Below are positions 18,639 through 62,958 of a stretch of DNA of 64,000 nt, in pieces; the first letter of the stretch is position 1; every line of letters starts with the position of its first letter. The translations under genes were made by a program, and so were the position numbers. The notes beneath the pieces are model-generated. The model made no database searches. It had not been told where the DNA came from and saw only the letters and a list, made by a program, of their open reading frames with translations. The stretch is from an uncultured Bacteroidia bacterium (GTDB lineage Bacteria; Bacteroidota; Bacteroidia; Palsa-948): the NCBI GenBank assembly GCA_964481195.1, contig CAYZTB010000004.1, positions 24,306 to 88,305 of the forward strand, in the 5' to 3' direction.

Positions 18639-19895
18639 TCACCCAAAAAACATATACGCAATAAACACAGCAGCAATTACACCTGCTAAATCTGCAATAA
18701 GTCCTCCCGCAACGGCATAGCGGGTGTTTCGTATTCCAACAGAGCCAAAATACAGCGCAACAATATAAAAAGTAGTATCAGCAGCGCCTTGAAAAATACA
18801 AGATAGGCGACCTGCAAAAGAATCTGCCCCATACTTGTTCATCGTTTCAATCATGAGCGCACGCGCACCACTGCCACTTAAAGGCTTCATAAAAGCTGTA
18901 GGTAGGGCATCTACAAATTCTGTTCTGCCGCCAATAGCTTGCACACAGTAAGCGATTCCTTGTACAATTATATCCATAGCCCCCGATGCGCGGAATACCG
19001 CAATGCCAACGAGCATAGCAACTAAGTAGGGAATAATTTTTATGCTGGTTTCAAACCCTGACTTAGCCCCTTCTATAAATGCATCGTACACATTTATTTT
19101 TTTTCGAAGTGCAGCAATTAAAAAGGCAGAAATTATTCCAAACAAAATAATATTTCCTGCAAACGAAGAACGTACTGCAATTTGTTCCTGCGTGAGGGTA
19201 GATAAATACCAAATAATTCCCCCTATGAAAGAAGTTACTCCGCCAATCCAGGCAAGTAAGACTTTATCAAACAAATTTATTTTTTGCCAAATTGCCACAG
19301 CAATAATTCCTGCCAAAGTAGAGCAATAAGTTGCCATGAGTAGTGGAATAAAAATATCCGAAGCATCGGCAGCGCCTAATATTTTTCGCTGCATCATAAT
19401 CGTAATCGGAATCATGGTAAGTCCGGAAGTATTCAAAACCAAAAACATGATTTGTGAATTAGAGGCGGTATCTTTTTGAGGATTTAATTCCTGCAAGCTT
19501 TGCATGGCTTTTAATCCAAGGGGAGTAGCGGCATTGTCAAGCCCTAACATATTGGCAGAAAAGTTCATAATGATATTTCCATGTGCAGGATGTCCTTTAG
19601 GCACTTGAGGAAATAATCGAGAGAAAAAAGGATTTACAATTTTTGCCAACCAGCTGATTGCTCCTGCTTCTTCACCAATTTTCATAAGTCCCAACCAAAG
19701 CGTCATTACTCCAATAAGCGGAAGCGCAATTTTCATAACGGCTAATTCAGAAGATTCAAAAGTGGCGTTGATGATGGCAGGAAAAATATCTAAGCCTCCA
19801 AACTCGGGGTGACCAACAAAATGCAGCACTACCTTAGCGATAGCTACTAGCAGCGCCACAAGAAAAAAAGAAATCCAAATGTAGTTGAGTAACAT
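18639..19895 (-). CDS. Fused SpmA/SpmB-like nucleoside-recognition (Gate) membrane protein
   Basis: ANMLGLDNAATPLGLKAM, PLSGSGARA, DTTFYIVALYFGSVGI. Confidence 0.88.
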   Translation of the reverse strand: MLLNYIWISFFLVALLVAIAKVVLHFVGHPEFGGLDIFPAIINATFESSELAVMKIALPLIGVMTLWLGLMKIGEEAGAISWLAKIVNPFFSRLFPQVPKGHPAHGNIIMNFSANMLGLDNAATPLGLKAMQSLQELNPQKDTASNSQIMFLVLNTSGLTMIPITIMMQRKILGAADASDIFIPLLMATYCSTLAGIIAVAIWQKINLFDKVLLAWIGGVTSFIGGIIWYLSTLTQEQIAVRSSFAGNIILFGIISAFLIAALRKKINVYDAFIEGAKSGFETSIKIIPYLVAMLVGIAVFRASGAMDIIVQGIAYCVQAIGGRTEFVDALPTAFMKPLSGSGARALMIETMNKYGADSFAGRLSCIFQGAADTTFYIVALYFGSVGIRNTRYAVAGGLIADLAGVIAAVFIAYMFFG

Positions 19896-19950
19896 AGTTT
19901 TTAGTTTCTAGTCTTTAGTTTTTGGTCCTTAATTCCCTATTACCTATTAA
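19895..19950. repeat. Degenerate 7-mer tandem array, 8 units, upstream of the spm gene
   Basis: TAGTTTT TAGTTTC TAGTCTT TAGTTTT TGGTCCT TAATTCC CTATTAC CTATTAA. Confidence 0.65.
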
Positions 19951-20017
19951 TTCAACAAATTTAGCTTTTTCTCTAAAGGGTAAAGAGGGGGCTTTCAATT
20001 AAAACGGCATTCGATTT

Positions 20018-20100
20018 TTCAACACAGAGAGCACAGAGTTTACTGAGATTCACAGAGAAACTCTGTGTTACTCTGTTTGCTTCGCGAACTCTGTGTTAAA
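20018..20100. mobile_element. Gene-less family A (CACAGAG) inward-facing doublet, MITE-like
   Basis: TTCAACACAGAGAGCACAGAG...GAGATTCACAGAG-AAA-CTCTGTGTTACTC...CTCTGTGTTAAA; arms match the flanks of GxxExxY at 62495/62914. Confidence 0.7.
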
Positions 20101-20217
20101 GATTTTATTATTCGTATTAAAATACGTTTAATAGCAAACAATAACATTCAAGCTAAAACTCTTTCAATAGCTCTTAATAAATTATATCTTTGCGCCACAA
20201 TCTTAAATATAAAAATT

Positions 20218-20628
20218 ATGTACCCAGAAGCAATTGTAAAACCAATGAAAGCAGAACTTAACTCTGCCGGATTTGAAGATCTTATAACAACAGATGCAGT
20301 AGAGAATGCAATCAATGCAAAAGGCACTACACTGGTAGTAGTAAATTCTGTTTGCGGTTGCGCTGCAGGCGCTGCACGCCCGGGAGTGAAATTAGCTATT
20401 GATCATCCTAAACACCCATCAAAATTAACTGCTGTATTTGCCGGTGTAGATACCGAAGCGGTAGCACAAGCAAGAAAGCATTTTCTTCCTTACCCGCCTT
20501 CATCTCCCTCAATAGCTTTATTTAAGGATGGCAAATTGGTGCATTTTGTAGAGCGCCATCATATTGAAGGTCGTTCGGCAGAAATGATAGCCGATAATCT
20601 TAAAATGGCTTTTGACGAACATTGCTAA
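20218..20628 (+). CDS. BrxA/BrxB family bacilliredoxin
   Basis: MYPEAIVKPM, VNSVCGCAAGAARP (CGC motif); -7 TATCTTTG at 20185-20192. Confidence 0.92.
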   Translation: MYPEAIVKPMKAELNSAGFEDLITTDAVENAINAKGTTLVVVNSVCGCAAGAARPGVKLAIDHPKHPSKLTAVFAGVDTEAVAQARKHFLPYPPSSPSIALFKDGKLVHFVERHHIEGRSAEMIADNLKMAFDEHC

Positions 20629-20703
20629 TACGACAAAACTAAGACCAATTTCATTTAGTAGAATTCAATTTGAAGGCATTGGCTTAGTTTTTTAAGTATT
20701 CAT

Positions 20704-20834
20704 CCTTTGTGAACTTTGTGGGCTGATTCTTTGTGTTCTTTGCGGTTTCTGCCTTTTTAACAGCCGAAACCACAAAGAGAATCATGTAAATACACGCTCC
20801 AAAGGAGTCCCTTCGGGGCAAAGAACATAGAGGA
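20704..20834. repeat. Family A' (CACAAAG) outward-facing doublet with a nested family D element (20796-20819)
   Basis: Reverse-complement similarity to 28964-29070 (TTTGTGGGCTG, TTTGYGGTTTCTG, CAGCCGAAACCACAAAG); GCTCCAAAGGAGTCCCTTCGGGGC interrupts a CAC^AAAG unit. Confidence 0.8.
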
Positions 20835-20971
20835 ATACAAGCTGAGACGCTTAATACAAAATACTGTTTTTTGCTGTCGTTCTGTTTTATTATCTTCGCA
20901 CGCCCGAATGAGAATTGCTCAGGTGGGCAACTTTTAAAAAAAAATAGTCAACAATCATTAAAATATAAATC

Positions 20972-28588: not shown

Positions 28589-28972
28589 ATGCTGACAGAA
28601 AATCAACTATCAAATAAAATAATCGGACTTGCGATGCAAGTTCACACCACACTGGGTCCGGGCCTGCTCGAAAGCGCATATAAGGAGTGCATGCAATACA
28701 AAATAAAAAAAGCGGGTCTATGCGTAGAAAAGGAAAAAGCCATGCCACTCATTTTTGAAGAAATAAAGCTGGAATGCGCATACCGCATGGACCTGCTCGT
28801 AGAAAGTAAGGTAGTAATAGAGATCAAGAGTGTAGAGGCGTTGAATGATGTACACCTAGCGCAAACACTCACCTACATGAAACTTGGGAGTTATAAACTA
28901 GGGTTACTGATCAATTTTAATGTTGCACATCTAAGAAATGGAATAAAACGTGTTATAAACGGCACTTTGTGA
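28589..28972 (+). CDS. GxxExxY protein (PD-(D/E)XK nuclease superfamily), copy 1
   Basis: [41 protein letters not shown]. Confidence 0.93.
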   Translation: MLTENQLSNKIIGLAMQVHTTLGPGLLESAYKECMQYKIKKAGLCVEKEKAMPLIFEEIKLECAYRMDLLVESKVVIEIKSVEALNDVHLAQTLTYMKLGSYKLGLLINFNVAHLRNGIKRVINGTL

Positions 28973-29070
28973 CCTCTGTGCCAGCCATAGTGTCCTTTGT
29001 GGTTTCGGCTGATAAATACAGAAACCACAAAGGACACAAAGTGAATAAACAGCCCACAAAGGGCACGAAG
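28964..29070. repeat. Family A' doublet overlapping the GxxExxY-1 stop codon
   Basis: CACTTTGTGACCTCTGTG...CCTTTGTGGTTTCGGCTG-ATAAATA-CAGAAACCACAAAGGACACAAAG...CCCACAAAGGGCACGAAG. Confidence 0.85.
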
Positions 29071-29210: not shown

Positions 29211-29543
29211 ATGAGAAACAAAGTAACATTGATCGGAAACCTCGGACAAAATCCTGAAGTGAAAGAACTTGATGGAGGAAAAAAATTTGCAAAATTCTCC
29301 CTCGCAACCAACGAAACCTATCACAATAAAGCGGGCGAAAAAATAACGGACACCCAATGGCATAACCTGACCGTGTGGGGTAAAACAGCCGATATCGTTG
29401 AGAAATATCTTAAGAAAGGCAGCGAAGTGGCCGTTGAAGGAAAACTGCTCAACCGCAACTACACGGATAAAGAAGGCGTGAAGCGCTACATTACCGAAGT
29501 ACAAGTGAGCGAGCTTGTGATGCTTGGAGGAAAGAAGGACTAA
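29211..29543 (+). CDS. ssb: Single-stranded DNA-binding protein (short form)
   Basis: MRNKVTLIGNLGQNPE, FSLATNE, TQWHNL, KGSEVAVEGKL. Confidence 0.95.
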   Translation: MRNKVTLIGNLGQNPEVKELDGGKKFAKFSLATNETYHNKAGEKITDTQWHNLTVWGKTADIVEKYLKKGSEVAVEGKLLNRNYTDKEGVKRYITEVQVSELVMLGGKKD

Positions 29544-59504: not shown

Positions 59505-59590
59505 CTCCGTGTTACTCTGTGCTCTTTGTGTCTCTGTGTTGGATGTTTTAACACATAGCCCACAGAGTAGTAAGAGTCCCACAGAGAGAC
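59505..59590. repeat. Family A outward-facing doublet downstream of sdhB
   Basis: CTCCGTGTTACTCTGTG...CTCTGTGTT-GGATGTT-TTAACACATAGCCCACAGAG...GAGTCCCACAGAG. Confidence 0.8.
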
Positions 59591-60414: not shown

Positions 60415-60500
60415 CTCAGTGTAACTCTGGTTTTACCTCTGTGTTCTCTGTGTTGAAAAATTTAACACAGAGCGCGCAGAGGCGAATGAGTTTCACAGAG
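60415..60500. repeat. Family A outward-facing doublet between sdhA and sdhB
   Basis: CTCAGTGTAACTC...CTCTGTGTTCTCTGTGTTGAA-AAA-TTTAACACAGAGCGCGCAGAG...GAGTTTCACAGAG. Confidence 0.85.
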
Positions 60501-62494: not shown

Positions 62495-62958
62495 TTTAAC
62501 ACAGAGGGCATGGAGAAAAAGAGTTACACGGAGTTTAAATTGCCGTTTATTTTTCTTCGGATACCTTCTTTTAATAAGGGAACATTAAAGTTAATTAAAA
62601 GTCCAAGTTTTTTATTTGCTAGTTTAAGATACGTTACTAATTGCGCTTCGTGAACAGGTAAAATATGTTCAACAGATTTAAATTCTAAAATTATCAAATC
62701 GTTCACTAGGGTATCAATAACAAATTCTTTATCAAGTTTTTCGCCTTTAAATGTAACTGGTAATATTACTTGTCTTTGCACATACAGCCCTTCTTTCAGC
62801 ATTACGTTCTCAGCACATATTTCATATACAGATTCCATTAAACCCGGACCAAGCTCTTTGTGCACTTCCATGCAACAATGAATTATTTGTTGAGAAAGAT
62901 TATTGTAATCCTTCTCTGTGAAACTCTTAACCCTCTGTGTGCTCTGTGTTGAATTCAT
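62495..62958. mobile_element. GxxExxY gene bounded by inverted family A arms, inserted between sdhC and sdhA
   Basis: Left arm TTTAACACAGAG...GAGTTACACGGAG (62495-62533); right arm CTCTGTGAAACTC...CTCTGTGTGCTCTGTGTTGAA (62914-62953). Confidence 0.75.
62524..62958 (-). CDS. GxxExxY protein, copy 2
   Basis: [41 protein letters not shown]; N-terminal [15 protein letters not shown] and C-terminal NSV* are repeat-encoded. Confidence 0.93.

What the first reader, a model, noticed from the sequence alone, without database searches (positions are those of the whole stretch)
20018..20100. Gene-less inward doublet: the 'empty' MITE-like version of the GxxExxY element
Seen: 83 bp made of the two arms found around GxxExxY-2, joined head-to-head by only AAA. 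The ends are TTCAACACAGAG and CTCTGTGTTAAA. GATTTT occurs on both sides (20013-18 and 20101-06), which could be a 6-bp target duplication or AT-rich chance. It lies in the divergent promoter region between the spm gene and brxA. Inference: an internal-deletion derivative mobilised in trans.
Basis: partly seen in the sequence, partly recalled or inferred. Interest (0 to 1): 0.7.

Follow-up and report, generated by a model that had tools for sequence, protein, structure and literature searches.

The report
Gene-less heptamer-word hairpin repeat
The 83-base stretch is a real, gene-free copy of a small hairpin repeat. The same two arms enclose a GxxExxY nuclease gene elsewhere in this genome, and close relatives lack the repeat at this site, but nothing yet shows how or whether it moves.

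Summary
Bases 20018-20100 are two 40-nt arms joined by AAA. Each arm follows the plan TTYAAC-ACAGAG / CACAGAG / ACAGAG / CACAGAG. The same arms bracket the GxxExxY (PF13366) gene at 62.5 kb and form head-to-head doublets at 59.5 and 60.4 kb.

The design is not special to this genome. At least 119 metagenome loci carry the same tight tail-to-tail hairpin. In 52 of 79 loci holding GxxExxY homologues, the gene is flanked by inverted repeats stronger than any control.

Relatives with the same divergent spm-brxA pair have spacers of 94, 96, 232 and 239 nt, against 322 nt here. None carries this element, so it is a gain in this lineage.

- GATTTT as a target duplication: flanking repeats equal chance across 65 and 106 family copies.
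- A clean empty site: the best junction match has p of about 0.12.
- Recent movement: there is no near-identical twin, and all same-species contigs carry the element.
- Origin by internal deletion of a gene-bearing copy: untested.

My best reading is an old, non-autonomous member of an apparently undescribed REPIN-like hairpin family linked to a PD-(D/E)XK nuclease.

The parts
20018..20100 (.). The whole 83-bp tail-to-tail ('inward') hairpin doublet
   Evidence: Read directly. Folds at z = -4.9 as RNA and -4.5 as DNA. Absent from the orthologous spacer of relatives L600, L601, L604, L607 and L608.
20018..20057 (+). Left arm. Head TTCAAC, then words AACACAGAG (20021-29), CACAGAG (20032-38), degenerate ACTGAG (20042-47) and CACAGAG (20051-57).
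   Evidence: It is 80% identical to the 5' arm of GxxExxY-2.
20058..20060 (.). AAA loop joining the two inner words
   Evidence: The same AAA precedes the inner CTCTGTG/CTCCGTG in gene-bearing copies L281, L282, L284-L287 and at 62534-62539 in the window.
20061..20100 (-). Right arm, the mirror of the left. Words CTCTGTG (20061-67), CTCTGT (20071-76), degenerate CTTCGCG (20080-86) and CTCTGTGTT (20089-97), then head GTTAAA.
   Evidence: It matches the left arm at 27 of 40 positions.
20013..20018 (.). Left GATTTT. Proposed as a target duplication; more likely part of the T-rich outer end or chance.
20101..20106 (.). Right GATTTT
18639..19895 (-). Left neighbour: spm-like membrane protein with a nucleoside-recognition (Gate) domain
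   Evidence: PF07670, E = 1.5e-24.
20218..20628 (+). Right neighbour: bacilliredoxin BrxA/BrxB. Public gene calls extend it to GTG 20065 because the right arm has no stop codon in that frame.
   Evidence: TIGR04191, E = 5e-60. Called as 187 aa in L609-L611.
19956..19963 (-). Candidate Bacteroidota -7 box (TAAATTTG) for the spm-like gene. The element lies upstream of it.
   Evidence: Pattern match only. The motif is not enriched in the window, so this is an inference.
20185..20192 (+). Candidate -7 box (TATCTTTG) for brxA, 26 nt before the ATG. The element lies upstream of it.
   Evidence: Pattern match only; an inference.
62495..62955 (-). Gene-bearing counterpart: the same two arms (62495-62535 and 62912-62955) around the GxxExxY gene (ORF 62524-62958)
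   Evidence: TIGR04256, E = 1.7e-39; PF13366, E = 1.7e-38.
60415..60500 (.). Head-to-head ('outward') doublet of the same arm family, between sdhA and sdhB
59505..59590 (.). Head-to-head doublet of the same arm family, 3' of sdhB

Best explanation
The 83 bp are one gene-less copy of a dispersed family of small hairpin repeats. Each arm is a row of C-R-C-R-R-A-G words at roughly 9-11 nt spacing behind a TTYAAC head. In their long form these arms enclose a small GxxExxY PD-(D/E)XK nuclease gene.

Shown:
- The arms are homologous to those around GxxExxY-2.
- The tight tail-to-tail hairpin is a recurrent, stereotyped form in many environmental genomes.
- GxxExxY genes are usually bracketed by such inverted arms.
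- The element is missing from the same spacer in the nearest relatives, so it was gained in this lineage.
- The same spacer gained other small palindromes independently in two other lineages.

Inferred:
- The copy is non-autonomous selfish DNA, analogous to a REPIN beside its RAYT gene. It would be recognised through its words or its hairpin/cruciform by a GxxExxY nuclease supplied in trans. It would be copied after cleavage by repair or gene conversion rather than by cut-and-paste with a fixed target duplication.
- This copy is old and now fixed.
- It sits upstream of both candidate promoters, so it probably has no RNA-level role here.

Not resolved: whether it arose from a gene-bearing copy by deletion, or whether the gene entered the loop of such hairpins.
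For: - Arm homology and geometry.
- Word columns are 88% identical among the 8 window arms; spacer columns are 43% identical.
- At least 119 metagenome loci hold the same tight junction with full arms. I estimate chance would give only a few.
- Arm arrays occur as palindromes in many phyla.
- In 52 of 79 GxxExxY homologue loci the flanking inverted repeat scores above the maximum of all controls.
- The closest homologues (81-85% aa, L281-L283) carry the same 40-nt arms.
- L145 (Acidobacteriota) has a GxxExxY gene in a 448-nt interior.
- The catalytic residues E22, D62, E72 and K74 are 100% conserved in 75 homologues.
- Relatives' spm-brxA spacers are 94, 96, 232 and 239 nt against 322 nt here, and none has this element.
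- L608 has a CGCAAAG-type heptamer palindrome and L607 an unrelated palindrome with 27-nt arms in that spacer. L600 has a perfect palindrome of CGCAGAG words just downstream of spm that the window lacks.
- None of the 80 GxxExxY-2 homologue loci lies beside sdh genes.
- No Rfam family matches.
Against: - There is no direct sign of movement. The 5 same-species contigs fetched are 99.96-100% identical to the window here and carry the element wherever they reach it. The run contigs that cover it show no skipped form.
- No copy at least 80% alike over the full length was found in two source metagenome runs.
- No target duplication appears across the family.
- The empty-site junction match is not significant.
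- Interiors of 28 longer gene-less palindromes hold no GxxExxY remnants. This does not favour a simple deletion origin.
- GxxExxY-1 in this window has arms on its 3' side only.
- No experiment links the nuclease to the arms.
- High word conservation is partly an ascertainment effect, because arms are found through their words.
- The own genome could not be censused, so a RAYT or other transposase elsewhere cannot be excluded.
Confidence: 0.6

Rival explanations
1. The hairpin is the primary unit and an unoccupied landing site. The GxxExxY gene is a homing-type passenger that enters the loop of such hairpins. On this view the 83 bp were never a gene-bearing element.
For: - Tight gene-less hairpins are abundant and stereotyped. 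They far outnumber gene-bearing ones: 1 of 68 pairs, and 3 gene-less against 1 gene-bearing in the window.
- No gene remnants remain in 28 longer interiors.
- GxxExxY genes sit in the loop of either geometry: heads outward in Bacteroidia (L281-L287), heads inward in Acidobacteriota (L290-L293).
Against: - Arms co-vary with the gene. The closest homologues in other genomes carry the same 40-nt arm plan, which also fits arms travelling with the gene.
- The stop codon and the last codons of the gene lie inside the 3' arm.
- No filled/empty pair of one site was found.
Confidence: 0.25
2. It is a classical MITE. That means an internal-deletion derivative of a transposon, moved by cut-and-paste with a 6-bp GATTTT target duplication.
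For: GATTTT lies on both sides. Relatives' spacers contain a single GGATTTTT-like motif. The ends are inverted repeats.
Against: - Flanking direct repeats are at chance level in 65 and 106 family copies.
- The gene-bearing copy at 62.5 kb has no duplication.
- There are no near-identical sister copies.
- No transposase-family gene is linked; the linked gene is a small PD-(D/E)XK nuclease.
Confidence: 0.07
3. It is a host regulatory or RNA element. Possibilities are an operator array for the divergent spm and brxA promoters, a terminator, or an RNase III/stability hairpin.
For: The hairpin is strong. Copies at 59.5 and 60.4 kb lie inside and after the sdh operon, where an mRNA hairpin could matter.
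Against: - The same arms occur in unrelated contexts, around a nuclease gene and in many phyla.
- Relatives at 84-90% identity run the same gene pair with a 94-96 nt spacer and no such element.
- No U-run follows the hairpin on either strand.
- It lies upstream of both candidate -7 boxes.
- No Rfam match.
Confidence: 0.06
4. It is a chance palindrome in AT-rich spacer DNA.
For: None beyond the AT-rich flanks.
Against: Word enrichment of 20 against 3.2 expected, with 0 of 100 shuffles reaching it. Fold z-scores near -5. Alignment to a shared 40-nt arm plan.
Confidence: 0.01

Closest known systems
REP / REPIN elements with their RAYT genes (Proteobacteria)
   Same: Short imperfect palindromic units occur singly and as inverted doublets that fold into hairpins. 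They are dispersed in intergenic and intra-operon spacers, and gene-less copies far outnumber the gene. The associated enzyme gene is itself bracketed by two inverted units. No fixed target duplication is seen.
   Different: The associated gene is a ~125-aa PD-(D/E)XK (GxxExxY, PF13366) protein, not a Y1 HUH transposase. The arms are rows of 7-nt words rather than a single REP with a GTAG head. The design spans many phyla. No mobility has been demonstrated. (The REP/RAYT features are from my own knowledge; they were not re-read here.)
ORF-bearing intervening sequences (IVS) of 23S rRNA, e.g. Coxiella burnetii (PMC4990558)
   Same: A small selfish cassette of about 430 nt with terminal inverted repeats that form a long stem around one small ORF. 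It is sporadic and horizontally spread, and how it inserts is unknown. A PF05635 IVS-protein gene lies just upstream of brxA in relative L007.
   Different: This copy is not in rRNA and has no ORF. The family's cargo is GxxExxY rather than S23p. The arms are built of repeated words. RNase III processing is not tested and is unlikely for an untranscribed spacer.
MITEs
   Same: Small, non-coding and bounded by inverted repeats. It shares its ends with a longer gene-bearing form and is a lineage-specific presence.
   Different: No target duplication, no transposase parent, no burst of near-identical copies, and the whole element is one hairpin.

Membership tests
GxxExxY-linked heptamer-word hairpin repeats (no published description found; noted repeatedly in this scan) | Arms made of 3-4 tandem C-R-C-R-R-A-G words with about 9-11 nt period | tested here: met
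   Words at 20021-29, 20032-38, 20042-47 and 20051-57, with mirror images in the right arm.
GxxExxY-linked heptamer-word hairpin repeats (no published description found; noted repeatedly in this scan) | Two arms in inverted orientation forming a hairpin | tested here: met
   Fold z = -4.9 (RNA) and -4.5 (DNA). The arms match at 27 of 40 positions.
GxxExxY-linked heptamer-word hairpin repeats (no published description found; noted repeatedly in this scan) | The same arms enclose a GxxExxY gene in the same genome and in other genomes | tested here: met
   Window 62495-62955. L281-L283 carry the same arm plan. 52 of 79 homologue loci exceed the control maximum.
GxxExxY-linked heptamer-word hairpin repeats (no published description found; noted repeatedly in this scan) | The nuclease acts on the arms | not testable with these tools
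   No experiment is available. Only conservation of the E/D/ExK residues is shown.
MITE | Target-site duplication of fixed length | tested here: not met
   Chance-level flanking repeats in 65 and 106 copies. GATTTT at this copy alone.
MITE | Many near-identical copies derived from a transposase-encoding parent | tested here: not met
   No full-length match at 80% or more in runs X1 and X2. Arms are 65-82% alike within the window. The linked gene is not a transposase family.
REP/REPIN-RAYT | Associated Y1 HUH transposase (RAYT) flanked by the repeats | tested here: not met
   The flanked gene is PF13366 PD-(D/E)XK. The rest of the genome was not searchable.
REP/REPIN-RAYT | Inverted doublets of a short repeat that form hairpins and are dispersed in spacers | tested here: met
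   Four loci in 64 kb, in both geometries.
23S rRNA intervening sequence | Inserted in helix 25 or 45 of the 23S rRNA gene and excised by RNase III | tested here: not met
   It lies between two protein-coding genes. No rRNA or other Rfam match.
Intrinsic terminator | GC-rich stem followed by a U-run | tested here: not met
   The hairpin is followed by AAAGATTTT on the plus strand and by AAAAATCG on the minus strand. The T-run precedes the stem.

The most novel reading that the evidence does not exclude
GxxExxY PD-(D/E)XK nucleases and heptamer-word hairpins may form a widespread prokaryotic selfish system that works like RAYT/REPIN but uses a different enzyme. On this reading the 83-bp tail-to-tail doublet is its minimal non-autonomous unit. 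The nuclease would read the words on a hairpin or cruciform, and the element would spread by break-induced copying without a target duplication. Turnover would be visible between species only about 10% apart in protein sequence.
Probability: 0.35. Interest if true: 0.75.

Novelty: new variant of a known kind. Interest (0 to 1): 0.5.

Why it matters
GxxExxY/PDDEXK_3 is a very large protein family with no known function and almost no literature; three papers mention the name and none of them in this context. A gene-less hairpin with the same arms as the gene-bearing copy in the same 64 kb gives a concrete candidate DNA substrate. It also offers a natural autonomous/non-autonomous pair for a binding, cleavage or mobilisation assay.

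The comparison with relatives shows that such hairpins come and go in the same spacer on a short evolutionary scale. That is the behaviour expected of selfish DNA, and it matters for annotation: public gene calls extend brxA by 51 codons through the stop-free right arm.

Tried and rejected
There is therefore no genome-wide census of copies, flanks, GxxExxY genes or transposases.
- Rfam at E up to 10 gave only noise.
- A PDB sequence search with GxxExxY-2 found nothing.
- No RNA runs hold the locus, so transcription is untested.
They returned only distant relatives (80% and 68% aa at best) without synteny. The protein-cluster route found the useful relatives.
- Population variants: contigs from ten runs or samples either carry the element unchanged or stop short of it, and none skips it.
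- Laying the element on run contigs to count sister copies found almost none at 80% or more.
- The target duplication was tested twice and rejected at family level.
- Empty-site reconstruction: removing 20021-20095 restores GATTTTTCTTAA, identical to L604. However, 12% of random places do as well, and MAFFT does not align the spacers. I do not rely on it.
- GxxExxY remnants inside longer gene-less palindromes: none.
- An apparent TTC-type/TTT-type arm asymmetry tied to gene orientation is reversed in L281, so I dropped it.
- The idea that ssb was displaced by recombination between CACAAAG palindromes is rejected. The window's ssb is only 32% identical to the relatives' brxA-adjacent SSB gene.
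- The tight-junction pattern is absent from viral contigs, although triple-word arms are present there.

Full report
**1. Observation**

Bases 20018-20100 read TTCAACACAGAG-AG-CACAGAG-TTTACTGAGATT-CACAGAG-AAA-CTCTGTG-TTACTCTGTTTGCTTCGCGAA-CTCTGTGTTAAA. GATTTT lies at 20013-18 and 20101-06.

The heptamer CACAGAG/CTCTGTG occurs 20 times in the window against 3.2 expected; none of 100 shuffles reaches 20. Five of these are in the element. The stretch folds at -35.3 kcal/mol as RNA (z = -4.9) and -18.7 kcal/mol as DNA (z = -4.5).

The left neighbour is a 418-aa protein with a nucleoside-recognition 'Gate' domain (18639-19895, minus strand). The right neighbour is a bacilliredoxin BrxA/BrxB (20218-20628, plus strand), not the BREX gene.

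**2. The family inside the window**

The same words cluster at three other places:
- 59505-59590 and 60415-60500, where the heads meet: CTCTGTGTTGAA-loop-TTTAACACAGAG.
- On both sides of a 144-aa ORF at 62524-62958. This ORF is a GxxExxY protein (TIGR04256, E = 1.7e-39; PF13366, E = 1.7e-38).

All eight arms align essentially without gaps to one 40-nt plan: TTYAAC-ACAGAG, NN, CACAGAG, about 4 nt, ACAGAG, TTW, CACAGAG. Word columns are 88% identical between arms and spacer columns 43%. Whole arms are 65-82% alike. The two arms of the finding match each other at 27 of 40 positions, no better than they match arms elsewhere. The finding is therefore a true family member, but not a recent copy of any other copy in the window.

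A second word type (CACAAAG) forms palindromes at 20705-20834 and 28965-29061. The latter directly follows a second GxxExxY gene (28589-28972), which has no arm on its 5' side.

**3. The family outside the window**

By my own estimate, chance alone would give roughly a thousand matches in that collection. Even so, most hits are palindromic arrays of 3-4 words per arm. They come from Acidobacteriota, Planctomycetota, Proteobacteria, Chloroflexota, Verrucomicrobiota, Cyanobacteria, Bacteroidota and some archaea. There are 48 pairs with tails facing and 20 with heads facing. Interiors are mostly 10-150 nt.

One 448-nt interior (L145, Pyrinomonadaceae) encodes a GxxExxY protein.

The loci inspected show complete mirrored arms and A/T-rich loops, with typical total lengths of 80-120 nt. 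The 83-bp form is thus a stereotyped, common product, not an accidental deletion.

The tight pattern is absent from viral contigs. Triple-word arms do occur there, in at least 120 loci. IMG/VR may include host fragments.

**4. Link to the nuclease gene**

I examined 79 of the 80 fetched loci that encode relatives of GxxExxY-2. The best inverted-repeat score between the 150-nt flanks exceeds the maximum of all displaced-flank controls (26) in 52 of them.

The closest relatives (L281-L283, 81-85% aa) carry the same 40-nt arm plan as the window. In these copies and in the window, the ORF runs into the inner word of the 3' arm (...AAA-CTC-TGT-G TAA). The AAA before that word corresponds to the AAA loop of the finding.

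In Acidobacteriota the gene sits in the opposite geometry: CTCTGTGGTGAA-gene-TTCACCACAGAG.

E22, D62, E72 and K74 are invariant in 75 homologues, so the PD-(D/E)XK centre looks intact. None of the 80 loci lies next to sdh genes, so the gene-bearing form occupies different sites in different genomes.

**5. Presence or absence at this site**

Scans of species-representative genomes gave only distant relatives without synteny. The large protein collection did better, yielding spm-like proteins of 78-90% identity. Their contigs give the comparison below.

| Locus | spm identity | Arrangement | Spacer | Content |
|---|---|---|---|---|
| L600/L601 | 90% | spm-brxA | 94 nt | no element |
| L604 | 84% | spm-brxA | 96 nt | no element |
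| L607 | 81% | spm-brxA | 232 nt | unrelated palindrome, 27-nt arms |
| L608 | 78% | spm-brxA | 239 nt | head-to-head palindrome of CGCAAAG words |
| L603 | 85% | spm next to ahcY | 80 nt | no brxA |
| window | – | spm-brxA | 322 nt | the 83-bp element |

The palindromes in L607 and L608 are shown. None of the relatives has the CACAGAG doublet. L600 has a perfect palindrome of CGCAGAG words just downstream of spm, which the window and L604 lack.

The element is therefore a gain in the window's lineage, and this spacer has taken in small palindromes independently at least three times.

Within the species nothing varies:
- The five same-species contigs fetched are 99.96-100% identical to the window over up to 2.4 kb. 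Each carries the element wherever it reaches it.
- The run contigs that cover the element do so without any difference, and none shows a skipped form.

**6. Target duplication and empty site**

In 65 palindromes and in 106 tight doublets, direct repeats next to the palindrome ends have the same length distribution as permuted left/right flank pairs. In the first set, 3 repeats of 5 nt or more were seen against 1.8 expected. In the second set, none of 6 nt or more was seen against 0.6 expected. The gene-bearing copy at 62.5 kb has no duplication. Many copies have a T-run before and an A-run after the heads, so the left GATTTTT is partly the usual outer end.

Removing 20021-20095 yields GATTTTTC|TTAA. 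This is identical to a 12-nt string in the brxA-proximal block of L604 and similar in L600, L607 and L608. However, a junction match of 12 nt or more arises at 47 of 400 random places under the same freedom of boundaries. The spacers do not align otherwise. I treat the exact junction as unresolved.

**7. Deletion derivative or landing site**

Interiors of 45-300 nt from 28 gene-less palindromes show no match to a GxxExxY profile. Gene-less forms greatly outnumber gene-bearing ones. Genes occur in either loop geometry. These points fit the idea that the hairpin comes first and the gene enters the loop at least as well as they fit internal deletion.

On the other side, arms resemble each other across genomes that share closely related genes. 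This fits arms and gene travelling together. I cannot decide between the two.

**8. Function at this site**

Candidate Bacteroidota -7 boxes (TAnnTTTG, from established knowledge of Bacteroidota promoters) lie at 19956-63 on the minus strand and 20185-92 on the plus strand. The element lies upstream of both, so it is probably not part of either mRNA. These are pattern matches only, and the motif is not enriched in the window.

No U-run follows the stem on either strand. No Rfam family matches. No RNA data exist. Relatives run the same gene pair with a 94-96 nt spacer. A dedicated regulatory role is therefore unlikely.

**9. Comparison with known systems**

The nearest working analogy is REP/REPIN with RAYT: inverted doublets, many gene-less copies, and the enzyme gene itself bracketed by the repeat. 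Here, however, the enzyme is a PD-(D/E)XK protein and the arms are word arrays.

The gene-bearing form resembles the ORF-bearing 23S rRNA intervening sequences. These are selfish cassettes of about 430 nt with stem-forming terminal repeats and an unknown way of insertion (PMC4990558). A PF05635 IVS-protein gene sits just upstream of brxA in L007.

MITE criteria (target duplication, transposase parent, near-identical copies) are not met.

The literature searches found no description of these repeats or of a role for GxxExxY. Earlier notes of this scan describe the same family in at least 24 other genomes. I used them as leads and re-derived the main points independently.

**10. Verdict**

The reading 'gene-less version of the GxxExxY element, inserted here' is supported. 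'GATTTT target duplication', 'internal-deletion derivative' and 'mobilised in trans' are not supported or not testable with what was available.

Interest is moderate. The locus adds a clean gene-less/gene-bearing pair and a comparative gain to a family that looks undescribed and widespread. It gives no evidence of mechanism.

Noticed in passing
window 20629-20971 (palindrome 20705-20834); L600 1471-1875, L604 1557-1952, L607 214-609: Relatives carry a 131-134-aa SSB-family gene between brxA and ahcY. The window lacks it, and the 343-nt spacer holds a palindrome of CACAAAG words instead. The window's ssb at 29211-29543 is only 32% identical to that gene, so it is a paralogue and not a displaced copy.
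   Followed up: partly
L600 3799-3892: A perfect palindrome with 27-nt arms made of CGCAGAG words and a 40-nt interior lies just downstream of the spm-like gene in the 90%-identity relative. It is absent at that place in the window, L602, L603 and L604. It looks like a young copy of a sister family.
   Followed up: partly
L608 1331-1496 and L607 1333-1428: The same spm-brxA spacer holds a head-to-head palindrome of CGCAAAG words in L608. In L607 it holds an unrelated palindrome with 27-nt arms that are 93% complementary. These are independent gains of small palindromes at one spacer.
   Followed up: partly
L007 2032-2487: A PF05635 '23S rRNA intervening sequence protein' (four-helix-bundle) gene lies directly upstream of brxA in a relative with 77% BrxA identity. 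No heptamer arms are obvious around it.
   Followed up: partly
window 20065-20628: Public gene calls on same-species contigs give brxA as 187 aa, starting at GTG 20065. The right arm of the hairpin has no stop codon in that frame. The family profile starts at the ATG at 20218.
   Followed up: yes
window 19895-19935: A tandem repeat, TAGTTTTTAGTTTC / TAGTCTTTAGTTTT, sits directly upstream of the spm-like start codon. Similar TAGTCTTTAGTT runs lie on other contigs of the same metagenomes, so this is a separate repeat family.
   Followed up: no
window 28589-29061: GxxExxY-1 has no arm on its 5' side. It is followed at once by a complete head-to-head doublet of CACAAAG words, and its stop codon lies inside the first word.
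   Followed up: partly
L284, L285, L286: Three Chitinophagaceae species carry GxxExxY homologues with arms between what look like the same flanking sequences. The gene-bearing form can therefore be inherited vertically at one site across species.
   Followed up: no
window 20108-20125: A small perfect palindrome, CGTATT-AA-AATACG, lies just right of the element.
   Followed up: no
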